Counted from the stretch's first letter, positions 12,056 to 58,957 are shown. The stretch: 64,000 nt of DNA from a candidate division CSSED10-310 bacterium (GCA_016927905.1 JAFGLW010000004.1:1-64000); one strand, 5' to 3'. The notes: generated from the letters alone by a model not told the origin. Translations and numbers: made by a program.

Positions 12056-13413
12056 AAACGATCCTGATCAAGCCCTGCTGGTCTTATCCGGTCGATCCGG
12101 GAGATTCCACATACAACCGGAACTGGCCGCCGCTTTCCCTGCTGAACTGCGCCGCCCTGATGCGCCGGGAAGGATTGGACGCGGATGTTCTGGACGCCAA
12201 TGCCGAACGATTGAGCCCGGATGAAACCGCGAACCGAACGGAGGGATACGACAGGGTATTCGTCACGTCCGCCAGTCTGGACCGGTGGCAATGCCCGAAT
12301 CTCAGGATCGACTCCTTTCTCAAGACGGTTCATGCCATCCGGAAAAAGAATGTCTCCCTGCATGTCATGGGTACTCACGGAACCGTACGCTCCCGGCAGA
12401 TCCTGGATATCACGGGCGCTCAGACGGTCATCTGCGGGGAACCCGAGGACACGGTTCTGGATATCACCCGGGGTCTTGACCTGGAGGATATCCCGGGAAT
12501 CGTATTTTACCGGAATGGATCCTTCATCCGGAATCCGCCCCGTGAACCGCTCGATCTGGCGCAACTGCCGGTTCCAGCATACGATCTCGTCGACATCGGC
12601 CAATACTGCTATGAAGTCATGGGTGACCGGTTCGCGCTCCTGGAAGCCTCCCGCGGCTGTCCGTTCCAATGTATCTTCTGCGTCAAATCCATGTACGGCA
12701 ATGGATTCCGGGTCAAACCGGCTGCCCGGTTCATTCAGGAGATCGACGCCCTGATCGATGAGTTCCGCGCCAGGAATATTTATTTTATCGACCTGGAATT
12801 CACGGTGAACCGGAAACTGGTCGAAAATGTGTGCGATCATCTCATCAAACGGGGATCTCCAGTGAAATGGTGTTGTCAGACCCGAACCGATTCCGTGGAT
12901 ACCGAACTTTTGAAACACATGAAGAAAGCAGGATGCCAGATCGTTCATTTCGGCGTGGAAACGGGATCGGAGCGGATCCGGCAGACCCTTAAAAAGGGCA
13001 TCACCGCTCGCCAGGTCATCGAAGGCATGAAAGCCGCCCGGGAAGCCGGAATACAGACCGTCTGTTTCTTCCTGTTCGGTCTGCCCACGGAAACCAGAGA
13101 GGAGATGGAGGAGACCATCCGGTTTGCCAAGGTTCTGAATCCCACCTATGCATCATTTCATATCGCCCTTCCCTATCCGGGAACGGAGTTTTACGACATG
13201 GTGCAGGATGAACTGGGAACCGAACTGCTTCCTCCCGCATACACCGGGATGGTTTCATACGAGACACTGGAGAAGATAACCCGCCGGGCTTTCCGATCGT
13301 ACTACATGCGCCCGCGATATATCGCCGGCCGGTTGAAAGACCGGGATTTTTCAACTTTTTTCAGGCAGGCGAAGTTCTTCATGGTATATTTAAAAAACCG
13401 CTTGTGGAGCTAG
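12052..13413 (+). CDS. Cobalamin-binding radical SAM protein (class B).
   Basis: It has an N-terminal B12-binding Rossmann domain and a CxxxCxxC motif (GCPFQCIFC). It is about 450 aa. Confidence 0.8.
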   Translation: MKTILIKPCWSYPVDPGDSTYNRNWPPLSLLNCAALMRREGLDADVLDANAERLSPDETANRTEGYDRVFVTSASLDRWQCPNLRIDSFLKTVHAIRKKNVSLHVMGTHGTVRSRQILDITGAQTVICGEPEDTVLDITRGLDLEDIPGIVFYRNGSFIRNPPREPLDLAQLPVPAYDLVDIGQYCYEVMGDRFALLEASRGCPFQCIFCVKSMYGNGFRVKPAARFIQEIDALIDEFRARNIYFIDLEFTVNRKLVENVCDHLIKRGSPVKWCCQTRTDSVDTELLKHMKKAGCQIVHFGVETGSERIRQTLKKGITARQVIEGMKAAREAGIQTVCFFLFGLPTETREEMEETIRFAKVLNPTYASFHIALPYPGTEFYDMVQDELGTELLPPAYTGMVSYETLEKITRRAFRSYYMRPRYIAGRLKDRDFSTFFRQAKFFMVYLKNRLWS

Positions 13414-20229: not shown

Positions 20230-23200
20230 ATGATGGGTCATATTTGGATTCGATGGATTGCGTTGACGGTCTGTTGCCTGACCGCAGGACCGGTTCTGGC
20301 CGGTCAGGTCGGGGATCATCGCGCGGCTTATCAACGGGCTGTAGACGAAGCCTGCCAGGGCAGGACGGACGGATTGGCGATATACGTATCCGGCGATCCT
20401 CTGCCTGCGGGAGAGGAAATCAAAACCTGGAAGGGAATATTCCTGACTCTGGATACGGCGCAATGGCTGGTTTTTATCGATGAACATCCCGGCGCCAACT
20501 GGGAACATTCCTGCCGGTTTGTCCTGGTGGATCCCGGAACGGGAGTGGTCCGGATGACCCGGGGTACCCGGCCGCCGGAATGTCTGGGAGACATGATTCA
20601 CATGTCCGGTCCCGATATTCTCGGAGGAGAAAACGTGCGGCCCACTCTGAAATCCGCCCGGTCCCCGGCTGCACCCGCCGGCCGGTCGGTCGAGCATCTC
20701 TGGGCGGTGATTCTTTCGGGGGGAGCATCCCAGTACTCCAACTATCCCCGGTACTGGAACGACTGCTCCAGCATCTATACGACGCTGGTGAACGTATACG
20801 GGTACCTGGACGAAAACATTATCGTGGCTATTTCCGACGGAACCGATCCGGCCCCGGACCAGAGTAACGGGGGAAATTCCAATCCGGATCTGGACGGCGA
20901 CGGCGATGACGACATTATGTTCTCCTGTATCAAGACCAATCTGGACATTATTTTCGCCGATCTGGCAACCAACCTGACATCTCAGGATTCGCTGTTCATT
21001 TTCACCACCGATCACGGAAACGGCCAGCTTGGCGTACCGGGTCAACCGACCTCGATGAACCTGTGGAACGGGGAAGAAATCTGGGATTATGAATTCGCCG
21101 CCCTGATGGAGCCCATTCAATGCCGGGAATTCAATGTGGTGCTGGAACCCTGTTTTTCCGGTGGATTCGTCAATGACATCATCGAGATGAACTCGTCTGT
21201 TCCCCGGTCGGTGTCATCCGCGGCGAATGATCATGAATATTCATGGGCCATGGGTCCCGATTATATTTACGACACCTATGTGTTTCACTGGACGGCGGCG
21301 GTAACGGGAGAAGACGCTTTCGGGAATCCCGTAGACGCCGATACCAACATGGACGGCATCGTGGACATGTATGAAGCGTATGTTTACGCCGAGTTCATGG
21401 ATGACGATGACGAGCATCCCCAGTATGACGACTGGCCGGAGGGGTACGGTTCCACAACCAGTCTGTGGGGATCGGGACCGAATTCAGAGGGTGAAGTCAA
21501 GCTCGACCGAACGCTTTACAACTGTGACGATACCATCGAAATCACCGTGGAAGATCTCGATCTGGAAGGCCAAGGTACGCTGACCATCACCATCGATTCG
21601 ACTACCGAACCCGGCGGTGAATCCGTGATTTTGACCGAAACGGATACCGCGCATTTTGAAGGAACGATCGCCACGGGCACCGGGACCTCTTCACCCGACG
21701 GCATTCTCCAGGTCGATCACGGGGATTTCGTCACCGCAACCTATGAAGACGACAATTACGGCGGCCAGGGCCCCATGACACTTACCGATCAGTCGACCGT
21801 CGACTGCCTGGCTCCCGTCATTTCCAATGTCCATACCGACGATATGACCTATCAATCCGCTACGGTTTACTGGACCACCGACGAACCCGCAACGTCCCGC
21901 GTGGAATACGGAATCGACATGGGGCTGGGGACCGTGGTGGAATCGACCGAACCGGTGACCGACCATGCCGTCCTGATCACCGGGCTGGATGACTGCACAA
22001 CCTATTACTTCAAAGTGCTGTCCACCGACCAGGCCGGTAACCAGGCCGAAGACGATAACGGCGGTCTCATGTATTCCTTCCAGACCTGGGAAGTCGTCTA
22101 CCAGTTGAACGAAACCTTGGACTCCAATCCCGGATGGACCATATCGGGAGGTCAGTGGGCGTTCGGCCAGCCGACGGGCGGCGGCGGGGCCTACGGCGGT
22201 CCGGATCCCACCGGAGGATATACCGGCACCAACGTTTATGGCTACAACCTCAACGGCGATTACGCCAACAACATACCCGAATACAACCTGACCACCACCG
22301 TCATCGACTGTTCCGACGCCGAAGGCGTCATCTTTGGATTCCGGCGGTGGCTGGGCGTGGAACGTAATTTTTACGATCACGCCGCTGTCAGGATTTCCAC
22401 CGACGGATCCACCTGGACGACGATCTGGGCGAACCCGGATGCGGAAACGGCCGATACCGCCTGGGTCTATCAGGAATTCGACGTGTCGGCCTATGCCGAT
22501 CACCAGAGCACCGTCTATTTTCGGTGGGTGATGGGAACGACCGATGGCGGATGGACCTATTGCGGCTGGAATATCGACGATGTCATCGTGTACTACTCCA
22601 ATCCCTGCGGAGAACCGACGTCGACACCGCCGGCAACCTGCACACCGACCACGGTCCCCACCGGCACACCGCCGCCGGCCACCCATACACCGGCTCCCCC
22701 CACCCATACACCGGCTCCCCCCACCGACACACCGGCTCCCCCCACCGACACCCCGGTACCGCCAACCAACACGATGATTCCGACCAACACCCAGATTCCC
22801 ACATACACGTCCATGCCGCCGACCGACACCCCGGCCCCGCCGACCGACACACCGGTGCCGCCCACGGAGACGCCTTCCTTTGAAAAGGGGATGGTGCTCA
22901 TGCTGGATGATACGGACCTGACAGCGGGAGACCGGTTTTATCTGCACATGAACCTGAATAATCCCGAACCGGAAGCGTACCAGGCTGATGCGTACGTGCT
23001 GCTGGGTATATGGGGTGATTACTGGTTCTGGCCCAGCTGGATACATATGAGCCAGGGATTGGATTCACAAACGTACAGCATCCCCTCCGGAACCACACCC
23101 AAAGATCTTCTCGACTTCACATGGCCCGGCAATGTGGGACAGGCGGGCAATCTCGAATTCATCGGCTGCCTGTTCCGGCCCGGAAGCTGGAATATGATCG

Positions 23201-23235
23201 GCTCGGTTCAGTACATCAACTGGTCGTACCATTGA
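20230..23235 (+). CDS. Secreted legumain-like (C13, clan CD) cysteine peptidase. Order: peptidase domain, beta-sandwich domain, FN3-like domain, lectin-like domain, Pro/Thr linker, ~115-aa conserved C-terminal domain.
   Basis: It has a signal peptide (MMGHIWIRWIALTVCCLTAGPVLAG). FIFTTDHGNG and VLEPCFSGGF form the His-Gly/Cys dyad of legumain/GPI-transamidase. The PT linker ([13 protein letters not shown]...) is at 22615-22885. The C-terminal domain is shared with the ORF at 37578. Confidence 0.8.
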   Translation: MMGHIWIRWIALTVCCLTAGPVLAGQVGDHRAAYQRAVDEACQGRTDGLAIYVSGDPLPAGEEIKTWKGIFLTLDTAQWLVFIDEHPGANWEHSCRFVLVDPGTGVVRMTRGTRPPECLGDMIHMSGPDILGGENVRPTLKSARSPAAPAGRSVEHLWAVILSGGASQYSNYPRYWNDCSSIYTTLVNVYGYLDENIIVAISDGTDPAPDQSNGGNSNPDLDGDGDDDIMFSCIKTNLDIIFADLATNLTSQDSLFIFTTDHGNGQLGVPGQPTSMNLWNGEEIWDYEFAALMEPIQCREFNVVLEPCFSGGFVNDIIEMNSSVPRSVSSAANDHEYSWAMGPDYIYDTYVFHWTAAVTGEDAFGNPVDADTNMDGIVDMYEAYVYAEFMDDDDEHPQYDDWPEGYGSTTSLWGSGPNSEGEVKLDRTLYNCDDTIEITVEDLDLEGQGTLTITIDSTTEPGGESVILTETDTAHFEGTIATGTGTSSPDGILQVDHGDFVTATYEDDNYGGQGPMTLTDQSTVDCLAPVISNVHTDDMTYQSATVYWTTDEPATSRVEYGIDMGLGTVVESTEPVTDHAVLITGLDDCTTYYFKVLSTDQAGNQAEDDNGGLMYSFQTWEVVYQLNETLDSNPGWTISGGQWAFGQPTGGGGAYGGPDPTGGYTGTNVYGYNLNGDYANNIPEYNLTTTVIDCSDAEGVIFGFRRWLGVERNFYDHAAVRISTDGSTWTTIWANPDAETADTAWVYQEFDVSAYADHQSTVYFRWVMGTTDGGWTYCGWNIDDVIVYYSNPCGEPTSTPPATCTPTTVPTGTPPPATHTPAPPTHTPAPPTDTPAPPTDTPVPPTNTMIPTNTQIPTYTSMPPTDTPAPPTDTPVPPTETPSFEKGMVLMLDDTDLTAGDRFYLHMNLNNPEPEAYQADAYVLLGIWGDYWFWPSWIHMSQGLDSQTYSIPSGTTPKDLLDFTWPGNVGQAGNLEFIGCLFRPGSWNMIGSVQYINWSYH
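22615..22885 (+). repeat. Intragenic imperfect tandem repeats (about 15-24-bp periods) encoding the Pro/Thr linker.
   Basis: Reiterated cacaccggctccccccacc and ccgaccgacaccccggcc units. Confidence 0.7.
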
Positions 23236-23310: not shown

Positions 23311-23393
23311 AGCGAAGAAGATGTCGTTCGTCGGCCGGTATTGTATTATTGAACTCGAAGCGGACACGAAAGGATGTGACGGCATGGCCAGGT

Positions 23394-26275
23394 TGCGTTA
23401 CCCGGTGATCATGATTCTTGCCGCGGCGTTTATGCTGATTTCGATTTTGCCCGCATCCGGACAGTTTTTGTTCGATCCGGCATGGAACTGGCGATCGGTT
23501 GAAACGGAACATTTCAGGATTCATTACCCGGTCAATCTGGAATTCTGGACGCTGCGGACGGTCTCGAAGATGGAAGCCATTCACCGGGAGGTTACGGTCC
23601 TGGTCGGTTATGGAATAGAGCGGAAAGTGGATGTGCTGGTCATGGATCCGGCTGGGCAGCCGAACGGAATGGCCATGCCGTTTCTCGATTTCCCCCGGAT
23701 CATCCTGTGGGCGACATCCCCGGACCCGGAAATGCTGTTCGGCGGTCTAAGTGACTGGGGTGAACTGGTTTTCGCACACGAAGATGTGCATATCGTTCAT
23801 TTAAGCCGCCGGGCACGCAATGCCATGGAAAAGATAGTGAGTTTTTTACTGCCGATCGGTCCCCTGGCGCTGAAATCCCCCCTGTGGCTGGTGGAAGGAT
23901 TTGCCGTATTGAACGAAAGCGAGCTGACCGGGCGGGGCCGGTGCCGGAGCAGCCTGAGGGCGATGTTTCTCAGGCAGCTGGCCCTGGAAGGCAAACTTCC
24001 GGAATATTCCGGGTTGAACGGCGGGGATCCCTGGACCGGCCGTCGAATCCCGTACCTGGTCGGATCGGCATTCCTGGAATGGCTGAAAACGGAAAGCGGC
24101 AATCCGGACGCCTGCCTGCATCTGTTCAAGCGCATGTCCGCGCGGCAAAAACGGAGTTTCGTGGAGGCGTTCAGCGGCTTGTTTGAAGGGATGCCGGAAG
24201 ACCTGTATGACCGGTTCAAAGCCGAAACGATCGCCGAAGCATTCAAGATCGAGCAGTCGGTTGAAACGGTAGGACGGATCGAAGGTGACAAATGGGCCGA
24301 TTTCGAGGGCATGACCGGCCGGCCGGCGGTTTCTTTGGACGGATCGAAACTCGCGGTGATCCGCAGGGATCCCCCCAAACCGCTCCGGCTGGAAATCCTC
24401 AGCACATCGGAAACCGATCCAAAGAAAAAAGAAAAGAAAAAAGCACCGGATCCGGAGGATATCCCGGATAAAATGTGGAAACCTCCCGAAAGAAAGCAAA
24501 TTGCCGAATTCACTGCACGGAACGGCATTTATCCGAACGATCCCAGGTGGTTTCCGGACAACCGGTCGATCGTTTTCGATGCTGCGGCTGTCGGGCCGGA
24601 CAGCATGTTTCATTACGACCTGTACAGATGGAATATCGATACCGGAAATCTGGAGCGTTTGACGCGAAGCGAAGATCTGCATTCGGCGGATGTATCGCCG
24701 GACGGCAGCTGGCTGGCCGCCGTCCGCAGGCGGTCGGGCATGTCGTCGCTGGTCCGATTGGATCTGCGGACGCGCCGGGTATCCGAACTGATCGAACCCG
24801 CTCCGGACATATCCTGGGGTGCCCCCCGCATCTCTCCGGACGGCCGGAAATTAGCCGCAGCCTGCTGGGGCAGGGGGTTCAGCGAGATCCGGATTCTCGA
24901 TCTGGACACCGGTGCAGGTTCCCGAATATCCGGATTTGAACGGGATATCCTCGCGTTCCCGGCCTGGACCGGGGGGAACGGGCTTGTATATTCGACGGAT
25001 AACACCGGCATTTACAATCTGGAGTATTACGACTGCGAAAACAACCTGAAAAGGCAGTTGACCTTGACCACAAGCGGCATATTCAGCCCCGAACCCGATC
25101 CGGGACACCCGGGTAATCTCTATTATATCGCACCCGATTCAAAGGGATTCGACATCTATTATTTCTCCCCGGGCGATTCCGCCGTTCCGGATCTTCATCT
25201 TAACGGATTCTGTCCGGTGATGCCGCCGATGGATCCCGTTGAAATCCCGATTTACGAAACGCAGGAAATATCCCCCGGACTGCCGTACCGCCTGGGCCCG
25301 CGCCCGGAATTCGCATTCGCTTTCAGCGGCGGGTTGACACCTTCCGGAGACAGTATCGAACTGGGAATGAACGGCGGAGATGTTCTGGGCCGGCTGGGTT
25401 ATTCACTCATGGCCGCTTACGGATACTCAGGCGGAACAACCGGAGGATCGATGGAGGCGAGTTTAAAACGGTGGCCCATCGGTTTTTCGGCTGACCTGTT
25501 CTGGACCCGGTCGGAACCCAGCGAACAGGATGATTATCACCGGGTGACACCCCTGCTGGCTGACCGGAAAACGTACGGAATCAGCCTGGGATCCGACTGG
25601 TCGCGGATATTCCGGCTGGGATCGTTTGCGGCCAATGCCCGCGTGTTGACGGAACGGATCCGGCCGGAATCCGGCACCGATGATATATCCAAAAGCCTGA
25701 TCGGCTTGAGTTTCGATACGGTATCCCGGTTTTCATACGGCCATGCCGGGTTTTCAGCCGCCTTGAAAGGTGATTATCTTTCGGGGATGACTGACGGGGA
25801 ATATTGGAGTCAAGCCAGGCTGACCGGCAGAACGGCTCTGCGTTACCGCCATTTCATGTTCACGGCGCAAGCCGGAAAGGGAAAAACCTACGGGGATTTC
25901 TCTCCGACGGACGTTTTTCACCTGGGCGGATGGATATCTTCCGTGGAATCACCGATGGATCTGCATGGGCGGATACCGGTTGCCTATCTGCCGGCGGGCA
26001 TCCTGATCGGCCGGAACTTCGAGCAGCTGCGACTGGAGCTGGCACCGGATGCCGGAATCCCGTTCATGCTCTTCGCGGAATGCGCCCGGGTATGGTGCAA
26101 TACGGCAAAACCGGACCCGATCCGGGCGATCGGACTGGAACTTAATGGTGAAATCCCGCCGATATCTCTTTTGAAAATCCCGTCTACAAGCGTCCGTGCG
26201 GGGTTTGCCTATATCCTGGACGAGCCTTATGAAAACAAGTGGAAAGGATATATCGCCGTTTCGATCAGACCATGA
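23394..26275 (+). CDS. Large exported protein with an N-terminal HExxH-containing region, TolB-like beta-propeller repeats, and a C-terminal beta-barrel-like region. Putative outer-membrane protein.
   Basis: It has a signal peptide (MARLRYPVIMILAAAFMLISILPASG). The metal motif is FAHEDVHIVH. The repeats are DGSKLAV / SPDGSWLAAV / SPDGRKLAAA. The last ~380 aa show an alternating amphipathic pattern. Confidence 0.55.
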
Positions 26276-26291: not shown

Positions 26292-27260
26292 ATGAAATGG
26301 AACATATTGCTGTTTGCCATCTGGATCGCTTCCGCCGATGCCGGTTCAACCGATCCGCCCAGCCTGATTCCCTGCAGCGCGGAATCGGTTCCGAAACAGG
26401 CCGTCCCGGTTCAACCGGACTGGCTGGAAATGGGACCCGGCATTCTGAGCATGCTGAAGGAGGATTTCAGGGGAGTCAGTACAGTCCGTATTTCCATCGA
26501 CTCGAACCCGGAATCCGGCTCCGCCGCAGATCACCTGGTATTGTATTTTCAGCACCATCCGGTGTGGCTGATGAGTCCTTCCGGGGAATTCAATCCGGGA
26601 GCGGTATTGCTGTACGATCTGTCCGGTATCTCAGAATATCTGCGTCTTTTGCCGATCGATGTCTGGGACAGCCTGGTTTTCGCCTTGGAAAATCCGGATG
26701 ACCTGACCCTGTCGGCGATAACGGTGAAACACAACAATCAGACCATCCTGGACTGGAACGGAACCGCGACACTCACAGGGTCCGGAATTTCTCGACTCGA
26801 CATGGGTATTTCGATCCTGTCTTCAAAACTGTCTCAGTGCCCCGAGACACCGAATGGGATCGCATTCCGCGCGCTCCAGGAACTGGGCAAGGATGATGGC
26901 ACGAAATATGCCGATGAATCCCCGGGAGGCTGGTGCAGCGAATTCGCCGCCTGGGTCCTCCGCCACCACGGCTGGGATACCCCCGCCGGATCGATCGGAA
27001 GCCGGCATATGAGAGATTTCTTCTTAGGATATGACAGGCTGTTCGCCATCGAAGACGTATACAGTGGCGATTACACGATTCAGATGGGGGATTACCTGTC
27101 GATGTTCGACGGCGTCCACAGCGGATTGTTCCTTGCCTATCTGGGACCGCCCGGACCGCCCGGACCCGGCACACGGGTTCTCACCATCGAAGGGGGCAGC
27201 AGGGTCGAATTGTGCACCCGCTGTCTGGAAGATTTCGATCACATCGGGAACGCTCAGTAA
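26292..27260 (+). CDS. Secreted protein with a C-terminal CHAP/NlpC-P60-like papain-fold domain (tentative).
   Basis: It has a signal peptide (MKWNILLFAIWIASADA). GGWCSEFAAWVLRHHGW followed by a downstream DGVHSG resembles a CHAP Cys...His pair. Confidence 0.5.
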   Translation: MKWNILLFAIWIASADAGSTDPPSLIPCSAESVPKQAVPVQPDWLEMGPGILSMLKEDFRGVSTVRISIDSNPESGSAADHLVLYFQHHPVWLMSPSGEFNPGAVLLYDLSGISEYLRLLPIDVWDSLVFALENPDDLTLSAITVKHNNQTILDWNGTATLTGSGISRLDMGISILSSKLSQCPETPNGIAFRALQELGKDDGTKYADESPGGWCSEFAAWVLRHHGWDTPAGSIGSRHMRDFFLGYDRLFAIEDVYSGDYTIQMGDYLSMFDGVHSGLFLAYLGPPGPPGPGTRVLTIEGGSRVELCTRCLEDFDHIGNAQ

Positions 27261-27349
27261 ACCGACCGATACCGGAACTGCCGGAAATGGTATGTTTTGC
27301 CTGTCCCGGGTGGATTTCCCCCTCACCGGGAATTGACAAATCAAGGGAC

Positions 27350-29365
27350 ATGCGATTACTTTGGGTCCGAGATGAAGAGAAGATACCGGTTCCGCCGATC
27401 CGCGGCATTGGAAACGAACCGCCAGTGAAACTCGGACGACGGGCGTTTCTGGGAGGTATCCTGGCGACGGGCGCTGCCGGTGCCTTGGGTTGCACGCCGG
27501 GGCTTCTCAAAAAACGATCGAATCTCGTACTGATCACCGCGGACACGGTCCGAGCCCAAAGCATGTCGTGTTATGGTCACCCCCGGCTTACGTCCCCCTG
27601 CGCCGATCTGGCGGCTTCCCGGGGCGTGTTGTTCGAAAATGCATATTCCACATCGATATGCACGATGCCGGGACACGCTTCCATTTTCACGGGATTGTTT
27701 CCCGACCGGCACGGCGTCATCACAAATTATCGTCGATTAAAACGGAATATTCCGACCTTGGCCGAGATCCTTTCCCGGGAAGGATATACAACCGCAGCGT
27801 TTCTCGGAATCTGGATTCTGAACGAACCAGAAGGTATCGCAAGGGGATTTCAATATATCGACTGGAGTGAAACCGACCGGCCGTCACCCCTGAATGCGAT
27901 GCGCCGTTCCGGTGATTATATCGATCAGGTCATCGCTTTTTTGAAGCAGATGAAACGCCGGAAAGAACCTTTTTTTCTATGGGTTCATTCCTTCGATGCG
28001 CATGCGCCCTACATGCCGCCCGAACCCTTCGGATCGATGTATGTGAACCCGGATTTACCCACTGTGGACATTTTTCTGCTCATGCAGGGACTCCTGGAAA
28101 ACCTGAATGGCTATCGACCGGAATTCCCCAGGCCTTACATGGAATCGCAATACTTGGGGGAAATCCGATACTGGGACAGCAATTTCCAGAAGATTTTCGA
28201 GGTCATGCATGAATCCGGAAACCTGGCGGATACATTTCTGATTTATACTTCCGATCACGGTGAAAACATCGGTGAAAACGGCATTTACGGGCATGTGGAT
28301 TTGAACCAGCCGGTGATTCGAATTCCCCTGATTGCATGGCATCCGGACCGGCTCCCCGCCAAATCCGTTCGAACACCCGTGCAACAGACCGATCTGGTTC
28401 CAACGATACTGAATCTGCTGAAGATAGAATACAAACCGGATGATTTCGAGGGAATGGATTTAATGCCCCTGATCCTGGGTCGACATCCGGAGGATCTCCA
28501 CCGTCCGGTCTTTGTGATAAATTCCGGGTACAGCTCCGCATCGATTATCGATACGAGCTCGAATCTCAAAATCATTAAAAAACCGCTCATTGACTTTCCA
28601 TATCCGGATGAAGATATGATCTCGAAACAGAGCCATGCCGGTGAATTTATCGATTCGATTCAGAAGAACCGGTTTCGATGGCGTATCGTCAAAAAGAAAA
28701 ATCTCCTCAGTTTTTCCTTTTCAGGAGAAATCAAAATGGATCGTCCGGTCACCCGCGTGATGATTATGATTGTACGCCGGAATCCGGCCGGAAACCTGTC
28801 GGTCGACATGATATCGATGATTCCCAGGGAGTCCGCATTTTCCTTTTCCTATGAATTTCCTCGATACCAAGTTCCCCATCCGGTATCGGATTCCATTCCG
28901 TGCGATTACGTTTCGATGATTCCGACTTCCTCCGTCAAATATTCGTTATGGATGTTTGAATCGAGCGGAGATGCCGCATATGTATCTTCATGGTTTCAAT
29001 GCCTTGTCACCGATGAGAACGGAACGGTGCTTCATTTGAAGCCGGGCAGCCTTGACCGGATGATCCGGCTGAGCTCGGATGAAGATCAGCAATGGGGTCA
29101 CCAGTACGATCCAGGCCGGGATCCGAATGACCTGATGGCGCGTCTCAACCGGTTTTTGAACCGCAGGCGGGATATGACCTACCGGATCGATCAGCCGGAA
29201 TCGGGGATCGGCGATTTGCTGATTCTGCCTGCTTCAGAAGAATTCGAAACGGCGACACCCCGGGAAATCTACGATAAGTACCTGGAGATCCTGTCATTGG
29301 CCCCGAATAAGGACGTGTTCGAAAAGAACCGGCAACAACTCGAAAGTCTTGGATACATTTCCTGA
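27350..29365 (+). CDS. Alkaline-phosphatase-superfamily paralog 2, a Tat-exported lipoprotein, Thr-type motif T-M-P-G-H.
   Basis: It has a twin-arginine signal with lipobox (GRRAFLGGILATGAAGALGC). ITADTVRAQSM and STSICTMPGHASIFTGLFPDRHG. Confidence 0.7.
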   Translation: MRLLWVRDEEKIPVPPIRGIGNEPPVKLGRRAFLGGILATGAAGALGCTPGLLKKRSNLVLITADTVRAQSMSCYGHPRLTSPCADLAASRGVLFENAYSTSICTMPGHASIFTGLFPDRHGVITNYRRLKRNIPTLAEILSREGYTTAAFLGIWILNEPEGIARGFQYIDWSETDRPSPLNAMRRSGDYIDQVIAFLKQMKRRKEPFFLWVHSFDAHAPYMPPEPFGSMYVNPDLPTVDIFLLMQGLLENLNGYRPEFPRPYMESQYLGEIRYWDSNFQKIFEVMHESGNLADTFLIYTSDHGENIGENGIYGHVDLNQPVIRIPLIAWHPDRLPAKSVRTPVQQTDLVPTILNLLKIEYKPDDFEGMDLMPLILGRHPEDLHRPVFVINSGYSSASIIDTSSNLKIIKKPLIDFPYPDEDMISKQSHAGEFIDSIQKNRFRWRIVKKKNLLSFSFSGEIKMDRPVTRVMIMIVRRNPAGNLSVDMISMIPRESAFSFSYEFPRYQVPHPVSDSIPCDYVSMIPTSSVKYSLWMFESSGDAAYVSSWFQCLVTDENGTVLHLKPGSLDRMIRLSSDEDQQWGHQYDPGRDPNDLMARLNRFLNRRRDMTYRIDQPESGIGDLLILPASEEFETATPREIYDKYLEILSLAPNKDVFEKNRQQLESLGYIS

Positions 29366-31155: not shown

Positions 31156-31833
31156 ATGCCTTCGATGAATCTCGTAATGGTATTGAAAAGGTCGGATCTG
31201 TTCGCGGATGTGGGAGATTCCCATCTGAAGGCGATTTTGAGCGGCAGCCGGATGAGACATTATGAAAAGAACGACTTCATTTTTTTCGAAGGCGATGAAG
31301 GCAGCGCATTCTATCTTCTGGTGGAGGGTTCGGTAAAGCTGGCAAAATCCTCCGCAGACGGCCAGGAAACACTGGTCAAACTGGTCCGGCCGGGTGAAGT
31401 ATTCGCCGAGATCATTCTGTTTGAAAAAAGCGGCTATCCGGTCACCGCCGAATCCGCAGGGCCTTCGAAAGTCCTTGAAATATCCAGAAAACATTTCCTG
31501 ACGCTGCTCGACGACACCGGTTTCCGGAATGAATTCATCGCGCTGCTCATCCGCAGGCAGCGATATCTTGTAAACCGGATTCTGGTTCTGACGGCATATG
31601 ACGTGGAAGAACGTTTTTTCATGTTTTTACGGGAGCGATACGGAGCGCATCAAACCTATCGTATCGACGTATCCAAACAAGATATGGCGTCAGCCATCGG
31701 CACAATTCCGGAAACGTTTTCGCGAATGCTGAAACGGTTGAAAACAAATAAAACTCTTCGATGGACCGGCAAAACATTGCATCTGGCATCCGGGTTCTGG
31801 GAAAACCGCGAGGATCATGACCGAAAGGCATAA
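31156..31833 (+). CDS. Crp/Fnr-family transcriptional regulator, likely HcpR-type.
   Basis: It has a cNMP-binding-like beta-roll (FIFFEGDEGSAFYLLVEGSVKL) and a C-terminal HTH (MASAIGTIPETFSRMLKRL). It is divergent from hcp. Confidence 0.8.
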   Translation: MPSMNLVMVLKRSDLFADVGDSHLKAILSGSRMRHYEKNDFIFFEGDEGSAFYLLVEGSVKLAKSSADGQETLVKLVRPGEVFAEIILFEKSGYPVTAESAGPSKVLEISRKHFLTLLDDTGFRNEFIALLIRRQRYLVNRILVLTAYDVEERFFMFLRERYGAHQTYRIDVSKQDMASAIGTIPETFSRMLKRLKTNKTLRWTGKTLHLASGFWENREDHDRKA

Positions 31834-37577: not shown

Positions 37578-40500
37578 ATGGATCGCAACGGTTTGAAACA
37601 TACTGCTTTGACGGGATTGCTGATCCCGGTGGTATTGCTGTGGACCGCTTTTCCGGTTTATTCCGAAACAGTACGGGTGGCGGTTCCCGAGGTGAGCGGG
37701 TATTGTCTGGAGGATTTTGATGGAGGTCAGGTTCTGACTTTGCCCGGCTATGGCCGCGGGAACATCCCCGGAGAACCTCAGCTCCCCGCCAGAATTTTCG
37801 CGGTTGCCATCCCTCCAGGTGCGCGGGTTGATTCCGTCGATGTCCGTTCTTCTGAGACCGAGGTGCTTCCGGGCACTTTCATTATCGCTCCGAAACCGGT
37901 TCCCCGGCCGTTGAGCGGGGAAGAATCGAAGCGCGAGCTGGAAGCGAAACAGACGTTCATCGCACGTCAGAAGGAGATATACAGCCAGGATGAGCTGTTC
38001 CCCGGGCGGATCGGTGCCATCGTCAGGACGGCCGGATTCCGGAAATACAACCTGGTGGATGTCCGGATTTCTCCGGTTCAGTACCGACCGCAGTCGGGCG
38101 TTCTGATCCGTCACACCGGGATCATCATGGACGTGCACTACACTCCGGGCATCTTCCCGGTGAATCCGTCGGTCCTGACGGATTGGCAGCAGAGAATGGA
38201 GCGCCGGGCGGAGCAGATGATCCTGAATTATCAACAGGCGCAGCAGTGGTATCCCGAGGTTGCCCCGCAGCGAGGGTTGTATGAATTCGTGATCATCACC
38301 ACCGAAGATCTGGAAAGCTCCGTTTCGGATCTGGCAAACTGGGAAATCATCAAGGGGAAACCATCCAATGTGGTGACGGTGGAATGGATTTCCTCGACTT
38401 ATGCCGGAGTGGATCTGGCGCAGAAGATGCGGAATTTCCTGCTGGAGAAATATCCTTCCGGAGAATGGGGGATCGAAGATGTCTGCATGGCGGGTCATTA
38501 CGATGATGTGCCCATGCGCAGGATCGCCGATGATCCGGATACGGACCTGTATTTTGCCGAACTGTCGCTCCCGGACAATCAATCCTGGGACGCCAACTCC
38601 AACGGCCAGTATCTGGACAGCGGGGATAGCTGTGATTTTTACGCGGAGATCAATGTCGGGCGGATACCGTGGAGCGAGCCGGCGATCATGCAGCACATCT
38701 GCCAGAAATCCGTAGCCTACGAGATGACCGACGATCCCGCTTTCAAAAAGAACATTCTGCTCCTGGGATCCTATTTCTGGTCGGACACCGACAATGCGGT
38801 TCTGATGGAAGCCAAGGTGGATCAGGAATGGATGTCGGACTGGACCATGTTCCGGATGTACGAGAAAAACACCGATTATTTCTCTCCCTATCCATGCGAC
38901 ATGGAGCTGCTTCATGAAAATGCTGTGCCGGAATGGTCCACCGGGACCTATGCCTTCGTGAACTATGCCGGACACGGATCGTCGGTTTCATGCCATATCC
39001 TGGGCATCGGTCAGCCCGCATTCATCGAACACGTCGATTGCTCCCAGTTGAACGATGACTACCCTTCTATCGTGTTTGCCGACGCATGCAGCAACAGCGA
39101 AACCACCACCTCGACCAGCATTGGAAGAGAAATGCTGAAACAGGGTGCGGTGGGTTTCGTTGGATCGACCCGGATCGCCTACGGCTGTCCTGGATGGAGC
39201 GGTCCGGAAGACGGATCCAGCCAGTCTCTGGATTACTATTTCACGACCAGTGTCACGTCGGGGGAATACAGCCAGGGCGCAGCACTCCAGCGCGGCCTGC
39301 AGGAAGTATATCAGATGAACGGTTGGAATTATCCGGCGCTGGAAATGTGCGAATGGAGCCTGTGGGGGAATCCGGATCTGGGTGTGGCGTTTGCCCTGTC
39401 CAGCGACGGTACGGTGATGTTCGATAGGATGGTGTACATGCTGAACGACTCGGCGGTGATCACCGTCCGGGATCTGGATCTGGATGAAAATCCGGGTGTC
39501 CCGGATACCATCGACGTGGAAGTGAGTACGACCGGCGGCGATCTGGAAACCCTGACCCTGACCGAAACCGGCGGGTCCACCTATGTGTTCGAAAACAGCA
39601 TCACCGTTCAACCGGGATCACCGGTGACCGGCAATGGCATGATCGAGGTGAGTCATGGTGATGATATCCAGGTTATTTATATCGACGCCGATGACGGGCA
39701 TGGCGGTGTGAATGTTCCCAAGACGGCCGAAGCGGATGTCGACGGCGTACCCCCGGTGATCTCCGGAGTAACGGTGACGAATATCACCGAGGATTCCTTC
39801 ACGGTGGAATGGACGACGGACGAGGAATCCGACAGCGGGGTGACCTACGGCGAGGTCTCCCCGGATACGACCGTCAGCTCCGGAACCATGACCACCAACC
39901 ATTCGATTGCCGTCACGGATCTGGAACAGTGCACGGTTTATTACTTCTATGTCGAATCCAGGGATCGTGCCGGGAATGCGGCGGTGGACGACAACGGGGG
40001 TTCATACTATTCGCTCGAGACTTATATTCTGTTTGTTTCCCTGACTGCGGACATGGACGCCGATCCCGGATGGACCTACGAAGGTCAGTGGGCATGGGGT
40101 CAGCCAGCCGGATTGCAGGGTGATCCCCCGTCCGGATACACGGGAACGAATGTCGTCGGATACAACCTGAACGGTGAATATTCGGGGAATATGCCGGTGC
40201 GGTACGCAACCACCGGATCGTTCGACTGCACCGGGATGAGTGCAGTATATCTGGGATTCTGGCGGTGGCTCGGCGTTGAAAGCAACACCTGGGATCATGC
40301 CAGCATCCAGGTTTCGAATGATGGCGGATCGAGCTGGTCGACCGTCTGGGAAAATCCGGGATCGAGCATCAACGATCCGGACTGGACCTTTGTGGAGTAT
40401 GACATCTCGGACTGGGCGGCCGGACATGCCGACGTCAAACTGCGATGGGGCATGGGTCCGGCCGACGGGTACATCGAATACTGCGGATGGAACATCGATG

Positions 40501-42404
40501 ATGTGGTCATATCCAATGCCGTTCCCTGCAACCAGTCGATTCTGACCTACCAGAGCCACGTCATCGACGACTCCGCCGGAAACGGTGACGGGGAGATCAA
40601 CGGGGGTGAAACCATCGCCCTGTCGGTGACGCTGCAGAATATCGGCCTGGAGGCCACCGGGGTGGAAGCGGTGCTCAGTACCACCAATCCACACGTGACC
40701 ATCACGGTGAGTCACGCCGAATTTCCGGATATTCCCCAGAGCGGCGTTGGAACTTCCCTGACCGATTACGTGTTCGAGGTGAGCGAAGACGTTTCGGACG
40801 GCGAAGTGATCCCGTTCGAGCTGTCCTGGACCTGCACGGGCGCTTCCGGCCAGACCGGGTTTAACGATCTGATCGTCGCTCCGGGACTGGAATGGTATTC
40901 CTCGGTTGTTCTCGATCCCGTCGAAGGTGACGGAGACGGCGTCCTGGACCCGGGTGAAACCGCCCAGATCATGGTGACATTGTTCAACCGGGGACATGGA
41001 ACCGCTCACGATGTAATTGCCGATCTGACATCCAGCCACCCGCAGTACGTCACCATCGATGACGGCTCCGCGGATTTCCCGGATATGGAAGGTGAACGCT
41101 ATGGGACCAGCATTGCACCCCATTTTACGGTTACCGCCGATCCCGCCACACCCGATCACACCATCGTGACGTTCACTCTGGCCATCACGGGACAGAATTA
41201 TGCCACGGAGGATACTTTTGTTCTGGAAGTGACCGTATCGGATTTCATCTGCCGGTATGCCTGGGACCTGGACACCGATCCGGGCTGGACCTGTGAGAAT
41301 CAGTGGGCATGGGGCGTGCCGCTCGGACAGAGCGGCGATCCCACGTCGGGATACACCGGCGCCAACGTCTACGGATACAATCTGGCCGGGAACTACCCAC
41401 CCTTCCTTCCGGAAACATTTCTCACGTCGGAGGCCATCGACTGTTCCATGCTGAGCAGCGTGGAGGTGCGGTTCATGCGCTGGCTGGGGGTGGAAAGCGC
41501 ACAGTGGGATCATGCCTGTTTCCGGGTTTCCAACGACGGGTCGACCTGGTACACCATCTGGTCTCATACGGGCGAAACACTGCTCGACACCTCGTGGCAG
41601 AACATGTCGTACGACATTTCGGATTATGCCGACGGACAATCCGCCGTGTACCTGAGATGGGTCATGGGTGAATCGGATTCCTATGTTGAATATTTCGGCT
41701 GGAACCTGGACGATATCGAAATCTGGGCGGAAAGCGGCAATCCGGTGCCGACACACACGCCGGTGCCGCCCACGGCGACATCCATGCCGCCCACCGCAAC
41801 GCCGGTCATTCCCACCGCGACATCCATGCCGCCCACCGCAACGCCGGTCATTCCCACCGCGACATCGGCACCGCCCACGGATACACCCATTCCGCCGACC
41901 GATACACCCATTCCGCCGACCGATACACCCATTCCGCCGACCGATACTCCCGTTCCGCCGACCGATACTCCCGTTCCGCCGACTCACACGCCGGTGCCGC
42001 CCACCGCGACGCCGGTACCGCCGACCTCCACGCCGACGCCCGATCCCGGCATGACACTGATCATCGACGATGATTACCTGGAGCCCGGCGACATATTCCA
42101 TCTGCATTATTATCTTTACAATCCCGGGGTGGAAATGCGCACCCTGGATGCCTATATCCTGCTGGATGTCTACGGAGCGTACTGGTGTTATCCCGGATGG
42201 AATCACATCAGCATGGGACTGGATTACCTTCCCAACGTGCACATGAGTGCCGGGGCAACCATGCATGAGGACGTGTTCAGTTTCACCTGGGGCGACTACA
42301 ACGCCGGGGATTATCATGAGTTGTTCTTCTATGGGGCTGTGTTCGATGCGGGAACATTCGATATCTTCGGTGATTTCCAGATGATCGAGTGGGGATTCGA
42401 ATAG
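37578..42404 (+). CDS. Secreted gingipain-family (C25, clan CD) cysteine peptidase. Order: peptidase domain, beta-sandwich domain, FN3-like domain, 2x lectin-like domain, Pro/Thr linker, ~115-aa conserved C-terminal domain.
   Basis: It has a signal peptide ([29 protein letters not shown]). VNYAGHGS and VFADACSNS form the His/Cys dyad. The PT linker is at 41745-42050. The C-terminal domain aligns with that of the ORF at 20230. Confidence 0.8.
41745..42050 (+). repeat. Intragenic tandem repeats (24-bp units gaccgatacacccattccgccgacc x3-5 plus variants) encoding the PT linker.
   Basis: Exact reiteration is visible at 41881-42000. Confidence 0.75.
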
Positions 42405-42423
42405 AACAGGCAGAATTTGATTG

Positions 42424-42470
42424 CCGGCACGCAGTGTCTCAAGGCGCTGCGTGCCGGTTGCCTTTCCGGA
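42424..42470 (+). terminator. Candidate terminator hairpin (ccggcacgcag ... ctgcgtgccgg) followed by a T-rich tract.
   Basis: There is an 11-bp stem 20 nt after the stop. The T tract is interrupted (ttgcctttcc). Confidence 0.4.
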
Positions 42471-42524
42471 TTGTTTCCGTATAATGAAAAATAGTGCGGT
42501 TAACCCCGTTCGGAGGAGGTGTAT

Positions 42525-58055: not shown

Positions 58056-58957
58056 CGGGATGTCTTCCCTGAAACGGGTCGTTCAGCGGCAGCGCGGGCC
58101 ATCAGGGCCAGGTAGGCGTCCTCCAGTGTCGGAGTGGTTTCCTGAAAACCCGCCGGCGGATCCATTGCGGGACTGTAGACCCGGAGGTGGTTTGTTCCCT
58201 GGATCAGCATGGCCTTGGTGACGCAGTGGGTTGTTTCGATGTCCCGGAGCCGGCCGTTGTCGGCGGTTCCCTCGAATATCCGGCCCTTCAGGGTTTCCCG
58301 GGCTTCGGAAGGCGTCGTCAATGCAATCAGCCGCCCGTTCCGGATCACGGCGAATTTTGAACATAATACGGCGACATCTTCGACGATGTGGGTGGAGAGA
58401 AGAACGATTCGGTCTTCCGCGAGTTCCGCAAGAATGCGGTAAAATCGCAGCCTCTCCTCCGGATCCAGGCCGGCGGTGGGTTCATCCACAACGATGATGC
58501 TCGGATCGCCGGCAATCGCCTGGGCGACTCCCAGCCGCTGCCGCATCCCGCCGGAATAACCCTTGATCCTGCGCCGGGCGGCGAATGTCAGATTGACGCG
58601 GCCCAGGAGATCCCGGGTCAACTCCTCGATCCCGCCGGGAGCGCTGATGCCTTTGAGTTTCAGCAGAAAGACCAGCATCGCCTCTCCGGTCAGATTCGGA
58701 TAGAACCCGAATTCCTGGGGGAGATATCCCAGACGGTGCCGGATGGAATCCGGGTTCCGGACGATGTCGGCACCGTCGAAAAATACCTGTCCGGACGTCG
58801 GTTCCAGCAGGCCGGCGATAATGCGCATCAGGGTGGTCTTTCCGGCGCCGTTGGGACCCAGAAGTCCGAACATTCCGTTTTCGATCTGCAGGTCAATACC
58901 CTGCAATGCCGCCACAGGACCGGGATATACTTTCACCAGATTCCGTATTTCGAGCAT
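58052..58957 (-). CDS. ABC transporter ATP-binding protein.
   Basis: It has Walker A (GPNGAGKTT), the signature LSGGMRQR, and Walker B (IIVVDEP). It overlaps the permease start (ATGA). Confidence 0.9.
   Translation of the reverse strand: MLEIRNLVKVYPGPVAALQGIDLQIENGMFGLLGPNGAGKTTLMRIIAGLLEPTSGQVFFDGADIVRNPDSIRHRLGYLPQEFGFYPNLTGEAMLVFLLKLKGISAPGGIEELTRDLLGRVNLTFAARRRIKGYSGGMRQRLGVAQAIAGDPSIIVVDEPTAGLDPEERLRFYRILAELAEDRIVLLSTHIVEDVAVLCSKFAVIRNGRLIALTTPSEARETLKGRIFEGTADNGRLRDIETTHCVTKAMLIQGTNHLRVYSPAMDPPAGFQETTPTLEDAYLALMARAAAERPVSGKTSR

What the first reader, a model, noticed from the sequence alone, without database searches (positions are those of the whole stretch)
20230..23235. Two peptidases of different families (C13 legumain-like and C25 gingipain-like) carry the same accessory-domain cassette.
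Beyond the catalytic domains, the two proteins share four features in the same order. The first is a beta-sandwich domain (...DLDLEGQGTLTITIDSTTEPGG... versus ...[24 protein letters not shown]...). The second is an FN3-like domain (APVISNVHTDDMTYQSATVYWTTDEP... versus [26 protein letters not shown]...). The third is a lectin-like domain (DPGWT..GQWA.GQP...YTGTNV.GYNLNG...RWLGVE...D.A...S.DG.SW...W), present once in the C13 protein and twice in the C25 protein. The fourth is the PT linker followed by the C-terminal domain. This points to modular shuffling of a cargo cassette onto different catalytic heads. Legumain-type enzymes are uncommon in bacteria.
Basis: seen in the sequence. Interest (0 to 1): 0.6.

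Follow-up and report, generated by a model that had tools for sequence, protein, structure and literature searches.

The report
Shared tail cassette on secreted peptidases
Two secreted cysteine proteases of an uncultured bacterium carry the same string of non-catalytic domains behind different catalytic heads; this is ordinary domain shuffling, except that the last domain belongs to a large, uncatalogued family that looks like a lineage-specific surface-sorting or anchoring tag.

Summary
Protein A (window 20230-23235, C13 legumain-like) and protein B (37578-42404, C25 gingipain-like, outside the finding's coordinates) share an ordered cassette of globular domains. BLASTP gives 43% identity over 405 aa (E=7e-83) and 45% over 384 aa (E=3e-65), and each module is significant on its own.

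The modules, in order:
- an Ig-like domain homologous to the Nitrosopumilus S-layer protein repeats
- FN3
- a choice-of-anchor J (MAM-like) domain
- a heptad Pro/Thr linker
- a 115-aa C-terminal β-sandwich (CTD)

B has an extra insert of two Ig-like repeats plus a second choice-of-anchor J copy.

The same cassette sits behind S8 heads, and part of it behind M14 heads, in related metagenomic proteins. In other phyla the block ends in dockerin or a T9SS sorting domain, and choice-of-anchor J alone also precedes SLH repeats. Modular shuffling is therefore supported, and it is a known pattern.

The C13 head family is common in prokaryotes, not rare.

The CTD is the new element. It has no Pfam, NCBIfam or PDB relative. 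It gives 2,284 representative clusters, nearly always at the extreme C-terminus, on very diverse cargo. It was found only in candidate division CSSED10-310 and allied MAGs. Its role as a sorting or anchoring tag is inferred, not shown.

The parts
20230..20304 (+). Protein A: probable start (ATG) and signal peptide (MMGHIWIRWIALTVCCLTAGPVLAG)
   Evidence: Read by inspection of the translation. The database copy P0006 starts at this ATG. No signal-peptide predictor was run.
20305..20697 (+). Protein A: N-terminal extension before the catalytic domain, function unknown (possible prodomain)
   Evidence: It is conserved together with the C13 domain in homologues, which cover 86-100% of the 413-aa head. 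It has no Pfam match.
20698..21468 (+). Protein A: Peptidase C13 (legumain-like) catalytic domain. Catalytic His274 is at 21013-21015 and Cys320 at 21151-21153 (TTG numbering).
   Evidence: Pfam PF01650, E=1e-10, above the gathering score. TDHGN and LEPCFSGG align with the His and Cys motifs of legumains 6azt and 4d3x. Codons verified.
21484..21807 (+). Protein A: Ig-like beta-sandwich of the N. maritimus S-layer-protein repeat type
21814..22089 (+). Protein A: FN3-like domain (purple-acid-phosphatase N-terminal type)
   Evidence: Pfam Pur_ac_phosph_N (E=2e-4) and fn3 (E=0.046) are both below the gathering score. Homologues pass it (P0011 31.1 bits, P0175 27 bits). It is 49% identical to the B copy, E=1e-20.
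22102..22611 (+). Protein A: choice-of-anchor J / MAM-like domain
   Evidence: NCBIfam NF038128, 36.7 bits against a cutoff of 30. Pfam InhA-like_MAM, 27.4 bits against a cutoff of 26.9.
22618..22878 (+). Protein A: Pro/Thr-rich linker (heptad PPTDTPx)
   Evidence: 65% P+T over 90 aa. Encoded by 21-bp tandem repeats at 22656-22862.
22879..23235 (+). Protein A: C-terminal beta-sandwich domain (CTD) of an uncurated family, plus stop codon
   Evidence: No Pfam or NCBIfam match. AF2 pLDDT 98.1. The family has 2,284 representative clusters.
37578..37664 (+). Protein B: probable start (ATG, residue 11 of the GTG ORF) and signal peptide
   Evidence: Read by inspection of the translation.
37728..38141 (+). 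Protein B: Propeptide_C25
   Evidence: Pfam PF08126, E=1.7e-8, above the cutoff.
38286..39377 (+). Protein B: Peptidase C25 (gingipain-like) catalytic domain. His476 is at 38973-38975 and Cys514 at 39087-39089.
   Evidence: Pfam PF01364, E=1.8e-29. The head profile hits RgpB 1cvr with E=6.7e-55. GHGS and ACxNG align, and His and Cys are invariant in the family alignment.
39402..39746 (+). Protein B: S-layer-type Ig-like beta-sandwich
   Evidence: It is a member of alignment A6, which hits 8c8k. It is 39% identical to the A copy.
39753..40025 (+). Protein B: FN3-like domain
   Evidence: Pfam fn3 E=3.4e-5 and Pur_ac_phosph_N E=3.3e-5, both just below the cutoff.
40026..40532 (+). Protein B: choice-of-anchor J / MAM-like domain, copy 1
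   Evidence: Pfam Reelin_subrepeat-B, 27.6 bits against a cutoff of 27, and InhA-like_MAM, 24.4 bits. It is 49% identical to A's copy, E=1e-48.
40533..41255 (+). Protein B: insert of two tandem ~120-aa Ig-like repeats, absent from A
   Evidence: The two halves are 38% identical, E=3e-12. There are local NCBIfam matches to segments of the myxobacterial secreted peptidases TIGR03900 and NF038112. The same unit precedes choice-of-anchor J in M14 and other C25 proteins. The Ig-like fold is inferred and was not modelled.
41256..41747 (+). Protein B: choice-of-anchor J / MAM-like domain, copy 2
   Evidence: 55% identical to copy 1 and 52% to A's copy.
41748..42041 (+). Protein B: Pro/Thr-rich linker
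   Evidence: 65% P+T over 104 aa. Encoded by 21- and 42-bp tandem repeats at 41764-42035.
42042..42404 (+). Protein B: C-terminal beta-sandwich domain (CTD), same family as in A, plus stop codon
   Evidence: 39% identical to A's CTD, E=4e-22.

Best explanation
A and B are Sec-exported, multidomain cysteine endopeptidases of an uncultured diderm bacterium, most likely of candidate phylum CSSED10-310. Each has a clan-CD catalytic head (C13 in A, C25 with its propeptide in B). Behind the head lies a homologous non-catalytic tail:
1. an S-layer-type Ig domain
2. FN3
3. a choice-of-anchor J (MAM-like jelly roll) domain
4. in B only, two Ig-like repeats plus a second choice-of-anchor J copy
5. a flexible Pro/Thr heptad linker
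6. a 115-aa Ig-like C-terminal domain (CTD)

The tail is a lineage-wide module set that has been recombined onto several peptidase heads: C25 most often, and also C13, S8 and M14.

Most likely mechanism: the Ig/FN3 domains act as rigid spacers, choice-of-anchor J binds a substrate or a surface ligand, the PT linker is a stalk, and the CTD is a generic sorting and surface-retention tag. It would then play the role that T9SS sorting domains, dockerins or SLH repeats play on homologous proteins in other phyla. The enzymes would be displayed on or near the cell surface for extracellular protein degradation.

Shown: the homology and order of the modules, intact catalytic dyads, recurrence of the cassette on other heads, the positional constraint of the CTD and the diversity of its cargo.

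Inferred: export, surface display, the roles of the individual domains, and the sorting/anchoring role of the CTD.
For: - Module-by-module homology between A and B. Family assignments.
- Catalytic His and Cys are conserved in both heads.
- The full cassette follows C25, C13 and S8 heads, and a partial cassette follows M14.
- The C13+cassette gene is conserved with SerRS-PFK synteny in two other MAGs, at 55-57% identity.
- CTD family: 2,284 representative clusters at E<=1e-3. The domain ends within 5 residues of the C-terminus in 145 of 152 top hits and in 44 of 44 ORFs in the genomic loci. A P/T/S-rich linker lies upstream in 57 of 109.
- CTD cargo includes C25, beta-helix, PMP repeats, LTD, FG-GAP, HINT, CotH, M14, endonuclease I and Kelch.
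- Slot equivalence: the same three-domain block ends in Dockerin_1 in other lineages, and choice-of-anchor J alone precedes Por_Secre_tail/FlgD_ig, Dockerin_1 or SLH.
- The window encodes proteins that look, by inspection, like TolC-, HlyD- and AcrB-type efflux components. The phylum is predicted to be Gram-negative (PMC8248873).
Against: - There is no experimental or machinery evidence. No secretion, sortase-like or receptor gene is linked to CTD genes. The recurrent neighbours are only two-component regulators and Ser/Thr kinases.
- About 5% of family members carry the CTD internally, in three copies, or alone behind a signal peptide (P0045, P0060, P0072, P0005). That is odd for a pure export signal.
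- Signal peptides were judged by eye only.
- The FN3 Pfam scores of A and B themselves are below the gathering thresholds.
- Assignment of the window to CSSED10-310 rests on best named hits and on the distribution of the CTD family, not on marker genes.
Confidence: 0.7

Rival explanations
1. The CTD is a non-covalent binding or assembly module, like a dockerin, SLH repeat or carbohydrate-binding module. It would attach already-secreted enzymes to a cell-surface polymer, an S-layer or a scaffold protein, and would not be a signal recognised by a secretion or sorting machine.
For: - Homologous cassettes in other lineages end in dockerin or SLH, which are binding modules.
- Stand-alone CTD proteins with their own signal peptide exist (P0005, the 137-aa ORF in L019), as does a three-copy protein (P0045).
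- The core is strongly conserved and aromatic-rich (YWxWPSW, F.WP).
Against: - The strict extreme-C-terminal, single-copy placement (145 of 152 and 44 of 44) is tighter than is usual for carbohydrate-binding modules.
- No cohesin-like partner or repeated receptor was seen near CTD genes.
- In a diderm the proteins still need a route across the outer membrane, which this reading leaves unexplained.
Confidence: 0.3
2. The CTD is a highly divergent type IX secretion system (T9SS) C-terminal sorting domain, and A and B are T9SS cargo like the gingipains.
For: - It is an Ig-like beta-sandwich at the extreme C-terminus of diverse signal-peptide-bearing cargo, including many gingipain-family peptidases.
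- Related choice-of-anchor J proteins and C13 heads in other phyla carry Por_Secre_tail.
Against: - No match to Por_Secre_tail, FlgD_ig or the NCBIfam T9SS models, even at E up to 1-5.
- hhalign of the CTD profile against a profile of ten genuine T9SS tails gives a probability of 2%.
- The domain is about 115 aa with 8 strands, against roughly 75-aa Pfam models.
- The lineage is placed next to Acidobacteriota (PMC8248873), outside the Bacteroidota/FCB group where T9SS is established (general knowledge).
- Whether the genomes contain T9SS machinery was not tested.
Confidence: 0.12
3. The resemblance between A and B is trivial: low-complexity PT linker only, a recent duplication or gene conversion, or an assembly chimera.
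For: Both proteins contain PPTDTPx heptad linkers encoded by 21-bp tandem repeats, which are prone to misassembly.
Against: - Each globular module is independently significant at 39-52% identity, which is far from recent.
- Orthologues of both architectures exist in independent MAGs, one set with conserved synteny.
- AF2 models of two modules are confident.
Confidence: 0.01

Closest known systems
Gingipains RgpB and Kgp of Porphyromonas gingivalis (peptidase family C25; T9SS cargo)
   Same: B has the Propeptide_C25 plus Peptidase_C25 architecture. Its profile hits RgpB with E=6.7e-55, and the catalytic His and Cys align. As in gingipains, the catalytic domain is followed by an Ig-like domain and other non-catalytic domains, and the protein ends in a beta-sandwich C-terminal domain.
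   Different: The accessory domains differ: an S-layer-type Ig domain, FN3 and choice-of-anchor J, instead of the IgSF domain (RgpB) or IgSF plus haemagglutinin/adhesin domains (Kgp). A long PT linker is present. The C-terminal domain is not a T9SS sorting domain by sequence or by profile.
Prokaryotic C13 (legumain-like) peptidases with PKD or T9SS tails
   Same: A's head, including its N-terminal extension, is 40-67% identical to at least 379 clusters from bacteria and archaea that carry Pfam Peptidase_C13. The His and Cys motifs align with those of eukaryotic legumains.
   Different: The usual tail (PKD, with or without Por_Secre_tail or FlgD_ig) is replaced by the lineage's peptidase cassette. 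There is no legumain-type C-terminal LSAM prodomain. Specificity for Asn/Asp has not been tested.
Choice-of-anchor J domain proteins (NCBIfam NF038128; related to the InhA-like MAM domain)
   Same: The lectin-like module of A scores above the curated cutoff. As the family name implies, homologues carry alternative C-terminal anchors: a T9SS tail, dockerin or SLH. Their heads are often peptidases (M28, C1, M14, C25).
   Different: Here the anchor slot is filled by an uncurated domain family. The module is also embedded in a fixed Ig-FN3-choice-of-anchor-J block and can be duplicated together with a two-Ig insert.
Nitrosopumilus maritimus S-layer protein NmSLP (PDB 8c8k)
   Different: It is a single copy used as a spacer behind a peptidase head in a bacterium, not an array that builds an archaeal S-layer lattice.
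Cellulosomal enzymes (catalytic head, PT linker, C-terminal dockerin)
   Same: The overall logic is the same: diverse secreted enzymes share a C-terminal module after a Pro/Thr linker. Some homologues of the cassette do end in Dockerin_1.
   Different: The CTD is a beta-sandwich, not an EF-hand-type dockerin. No cohesin-like partner was identified.

Membership tests
Peptidase family C13 (legumain), clan CD | Match to the family profile above the curated threshold | tested here: met
   Pfam PF01650: 38.6-42 bits against a cutoff of 22.8, E=1e-10.
Peptidase family C13 (legumain), clan CD | Catalytic His (H-G) and Cys (A/P-C) dyad in order | tested here: met
   TDH274GN and LEPC320FSGG align with the His and Cys motifs of 6azt and 4d3x. 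Codons verified.
Peptidase family C13 (legumain), clan CD | Cleavage after Asn/Asp | not testable with these tools
   This needs enzymology. The S1 pocket residues were not analysed.
Peptidase family C25 (gingipain), clan CD | Match to the catalytic and propeptide profiles above the thresholds | tested here: met
   PF01364: 103.6 bits (cutoff 23). PF08126: 34.3 bits (cutoff 22). The profile hits RgpB 1cvr with E=6.7e-55.
Peptidase family C25 (gingipain), clan CD | Catalytic His and Cys | tested here: met
   YAGH476GS aligns with RgpB NYTGHGS, and FADAC514SN with FDVACVNG. Both residues are invariant in alignment A7.
Choice-of-anchor J domain (NF038128) | Score above the curated NCBIfam cutoff | tested here: met
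   The copy in A scores 36.7 bits against a cutoff of 30. The two copies in B were not scored separately with NCBIfam, but they are 49-52% identical to A's copy and hit the related Pfam InhA-like_MAM and Reelin_subrepeat-B models.
Fibronectin type III domain | Score above the Pfam gathering threshold | tested here: inconclusive
   A: fn3 14.4 bits and Pur_ac_phosph_N 22.3 bits. B: fn3 24.4 bits and Pur_ac_phosph_N 24.8 bits. All are below the cutoffs of 25 and 30. Orthologous copies pass them (P0011 31.1, P0175 27.0 and 30.0). No structure was modelled for this module.
NmSLP-type Ig-like repeat (PDB 8c8k) | Sequence-profile and fold match to the solved repeats | tested here: met
T9SS C-terminal sorting domain (Por_Secre_tail PF18962 / TIGR04183; FlgD_ig-like) | Sequence or profile similarity to the family | tested here: not met
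   No Pfam or NCBIfam hit at permissive E-values. hhalign of CTD profile A4 against T9SS tail profile A8 gives a probability of 2%.
T9SS C-terminal sorting domain (Por_Secre_tail PF18962 / TIGR04183; FlgD_ig-like) | Presence of T9SS machinery (SprA, PorV, PorU, GldKLMN) in the same genome | not tested
   Only 64 kb of this genome and about 290 kb of related loci were available. None of the neighbours examined were T9SS genes.
Dockerin type I | Duplicated Ca-binding EF-hand-like helical module (Pfam PF00404) | tested here: not met
   No Pfam hit. The AF2 model is all-beta with eight strands.
Sortase / exosortase-type C-terminal signals (LPXTG, PEP-CTERM and similar) | Short motif followed by a hydrophobic helix and a basic tail at the C-terminus | tested here: not met
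   Both proteins end in a beta-strand of the globular CTD (…YINWSYH, …MIEWGFE) with no hydrophobic helix. No NCBIfam sorting-signal model matched.

The most novel reading that the evidence does not exclude
The 115-aa C-terminal beta-sandwich (core motif D-x-Y-[ILV]-LLDVYGxYWxWPSW … F.WP..G.A.GL.FYGA) is the recognition tag of a protein-sorting or surface-attachment pathway that has not been described. On this reading the pathway is specific to the rare candidate phylum CSSED10-310 and its allies. It would be comparable in scope to the T9SS CTD or PEP-CTERM systems, and it would mark the whole surface-displayed or secreted proteome of that lineage, including peptidases, beta-helix and PMP adhesins, nucleases and HINT toxins.
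Probability: 0.3. Interest if true: 0.65.

Novelty: new variant of a known kind. Interest (0 to 1): 0.4.

Why it matters
Shared cassettes on secreted proteases are a familiar theme, so the two-protein observation alone adds little.

The CTD family is the more useful result. It gives a sequence handle on the probable secreted and surface proteome of an uncultured, rarely sampled phylum. Any protein ending in this domain is a candidate exoprotein.

It also points to either a new sorting or anchoring system or a new surface receptor. Both could be found by phylogenetic profiling once complete genomes exist.

There is a practical consequence as well. Gene callers often start at the conserved Met that follows the PT linker, which creates about 110-aa orphan proteins in databases. 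A curated model of the CTD would correct many annotations.

Tried and rejected
- An exact look-up of protein A's source contig found nothing on record.
- The first genome scan, with the 55-sequence CTD alignment, failed because no stretch was conserved enough. A 9-sequence alignment worked, but it used one narrow pattern, so the per-genome counts are lower bounds.
- The AFDB Foldseek library was unavailable.
- Single-sequence PDB searches gave nothing meaningful for B's head, B's middle insert or A's choice-of-anchor J module. A profile was needed for the C25 head.
- The CTD profile has no PDB sequence relative.
- The search for a conserved partner gene next to CTD genes, by all-against-all clustering of 247 ORFs from 32 loci, found only histidine kinase plus sigma-54 response regulator pairs and Ser/Thr kinase-TPR genes. 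These are generic regulators.
- I tried to place the window phylogenetically through shared housekeeping genes with the named CSSED10-310 loci. No such genes overlapped. SerRS and PFK tie the window only to two unnamed MAGs, at about 75% identity.
- I considered whether the 'SLWG' shared at the head/cassette junction marks a relic of a C25 head in A. It is not conserved in the C13 relative P0011, which has SLGG, so I dropped the idea.
- The per-module identity matrices hint at mosaic histories. A's choice-of-anchor J is 71% identical to that of the S8 protein P0014 but 56% to that of its C13 relative, whereas its Ig domain and CTD are closest to the C13 relative. With 12-15 sequences of unknown genome origin this is suggestive only.
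Full report
**What is there**

The finding's coordinates hold one ORF. Protein A runs from 20194 (TTG) or, more likely, 20230 (ATG) to 23235 on the + strand. The second protein named in the finding lies elsewhere. Protein B runs from 37548 (GTG) or 37578 (ATG) to 42404 on the + strand.

Pfam assigns Peptidase_C13 to A (E=1e-10, above the gathering score). It assigns Propeptide_C25 plus Peptidase_C25 to B (E=1.8e-29).

Both catalytic dyads are intact.
- In A, TDH274GN and LEPC320FSGG align with the His and Cys motifs of solved legumains.
- A profile of B-type heads hits gingipain R (1cvr) at E=6.7e-55. GHGS and ACxNG align, and His and Cys are invariant in the family alignment.
- By inspection, both proteins begin with plausible signal peptides.

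**Checking the observation**

BLASTP of A against B gives 43% identity over 405 aa (E=7e-83) and 45% over 384 aa (E=3e-65). Each module was also tested alone against the six-frame window:
- beta-sandwich: 39%, E=3e-10
- FN3: 49%, E=1e-20
- lectin-like: 49-52%, about E=1e-48, matching two sites in B
- C-terminal domain: 39%, E=4e-22

No further copy of any module exists in the window. The similarity is therefore in globular domains, in the same order, and far beyond chance.

The linkers are about 65% Pro+Thr heptads (PPTDTPx) and are encoded by 21-bp tandem repeats.

It consists of two tandem repeats (38% identical, E=3e-12) between the two lectin-like copies.

**What the modules are**

2. The FN3 call rests on sub-threshold Pfam matches in A and B. 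Orthologous copies pass the threshold.
3. The lectin-like domain is NCBIfam choice-of-anchor J (36.7 bits against a cutoff of 30). It is related to the InhA-like MAM domain.

**The CTD is a large family with the behaviour of a sorting or anchoring tag**

- A 7-sequence profile searched against 1.84 billion representative proteins gave 2,284 hits at E<=1e-3 and 1,487 at E<=1e-10.
- In 145 of the top 152 hits the domain ends within five residues of the C-terminus. In 44 of 44 CTD-bearing ORFs found in genomic loci it is terminal.
- About half of the hits have a P/T/S-rich linker just upstream. Most full-length members start with signal-peptide-like N-termini.
- The cargo is very diverse: C25 peptidases, beta-helix and PMP repeats, lamin-tail, FG-GAP, HINT, PKD, CotH, M14, endonuclease I and Kelch.
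- Many of the 110-aa 'proteins' in the databases are miscalled fragments that start at a conserved Met after the linker.
- A pattern-limited scan of one genome per species found 27 loci. All were in MAGs named candidate division CSSED10-310 or in unnamed MAGs, with one to six loci per genome. CTD genes were often in pairs.
- The closest named relatives of A's head and cassette are all CSSED10-310 proteins, for example MBN1296225.1 at 67% identity.

**Shuffling**

Among CTD-family proteins the full cassette follows many C25 heads, with 0, 1 or 2 copies of the (two-Ig + choice-of-anchor J) insert. It also follows C13 heads (A, P0011, and orthologues in L008 and L009) and an S8 subtilase (P0014). 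A partial cassette follows M14 carboxypeptidases.

The C13+cassette gene is conserved at 55-57% identity, with SerRS-PFK-C13 synteny, in two other MAGs. The fusion is therefore old and inherited.

The C13 head family itself is widespread. It has at least 379 clusters in bacteria and archaea, usually as C13+PKD and sometimes with a T9SS tail. What is specific to this lineage is the tail, and the head is not rare.

Outside this lineage the Ig-FN3-choice-of-anchor-J block ends in dockerin or in a short Cys/Trp tail. Choice-of-anchor J alone precedes Por_Secre_tail/FlgD_ig, Dockerin_1 or SLH repeats, on M28, C1, M14 and C25 heads. The CTD thus occupies the slot that known sorting or anchoring modules fill elsewhere.

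**How it most likely works**

The proteins are probably exported by Sec and then displayed at or near the cell surface.
- The Ig and FN3 domains would act as spacers.
- Choice-of-anchor J would act as a binding module.
- The PT heptads would act as a stalk.
- The CTD would act as the tag that directs or retains the protein.

Homology, order, recurrence and positional constraint are shown. Export, display and the role of each domain are inferred.

**Rival readings of the CTD**

- It may be a binding module of the dockerin, SLH or carbohydrate-binding type. Stand-alone and multi-copy CTD proteins favour this reading.
- No dedicated machinery gene is linked to CTD genes. The recurrent neighbours are two-component regulators and Ser/Thr kinases.

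**Verdict**

As a phenomenon it is ordinary: secreted peptidases that exchange accessory and anchor domains, built from domain families that are mostly already catalogued.

The part worth following is the C-terminal domain. It is uncurated, abundant, specific to one lineage and placed like a sorting or anchoring signal. Its function remains an inference.

Noticed in passing
window 42519-44933 (+): An 804-aa ORF immediately downstream of protein B. It has a signal-peptide-like N-terminus and an HEFYH (HExxH) motif but no Pfam match. It may be an unclassified secreted metallopeptidase.
   Followed up: partly
window 23321-26275 (+): A 984-aa ORF immediately downstream of protein A. It has an HEDVH (HExxH) motif near residue 150 and PD40 beta-propeller repeats. 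It may be a metallopeptidase-propeller protein. It is not conserved downstream of the C13 orthologues in L008 and L009.
   Followed up: partly
P0165-P0172, P0176-P0179, P0188 (hits): In another lineage the same Ig-FN3-choice-of-anchor-J block, several times behind C25 heads, ends in a conserved tail of about 25 aa, 'DGFETGDCxMWS…', instead of a CTD. This may be another short C-terminal signal, or the stub of a further domain.
   Followed up: no
L001 10001-10375; L002 6199-6573; L019 11118-11528: Stand-alone CTD proteins of 124-137 aa, with their own signal peptide and no cargo. P0005 lies next to a Ser/Thr kinase-TPR gene. That gene is 28% identical over its full length to window 59182-61668.
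   Followed up: partly
P0001-P0004 and many ~110-aa database entries; L003 477-1280, L004 3-1028: Gene callers start at the conserved Met of the 'GMxL' motif just after the PT linker. This yields orphan proteins of about 110 aa, although the true ORFs continue upstream through the linker.
   Followed up: yes
L008/L009 8556-10963; L020/L024 7075-10808; L019 7643-9301: A histidine kinase and a sigma-54-dependent response regulator recur just downstream of CTD-bearing genes in five loci from three MAGs. They may regulate the exoprotein genes.
   Followed up: partly
window 10298-12055, 27212-29365, 31817-33685 (+): Three sulfatase-family genes (Pfam Sulfatase), together with a B12-binding radical SAM gene (12052-13413). 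The neighbourhood is rich in degradative exoenzymes.
   Followed up: partly
window 54456-58055 (-): A 1199-aa ORF with a multi-pass membrane N-terminal half and a C-terminal region containing HEIAHQWW, an M1-aminopeptidase-like motif seen by eye. It follows an ABC ATPase-like ORF (58052-58957). No family search was run on either.
   Followed up: no
window 21691-23046 (-) and 40002-42749 (-): Long antisense ORFs (451 and 915 aa) overlap the cassette-coding regions. They are rich in Gly and Arg. They are most likely artefacts of the repetitive, GC-rich PT-linker and domain coding sequence, not genes.
   Followed up: no
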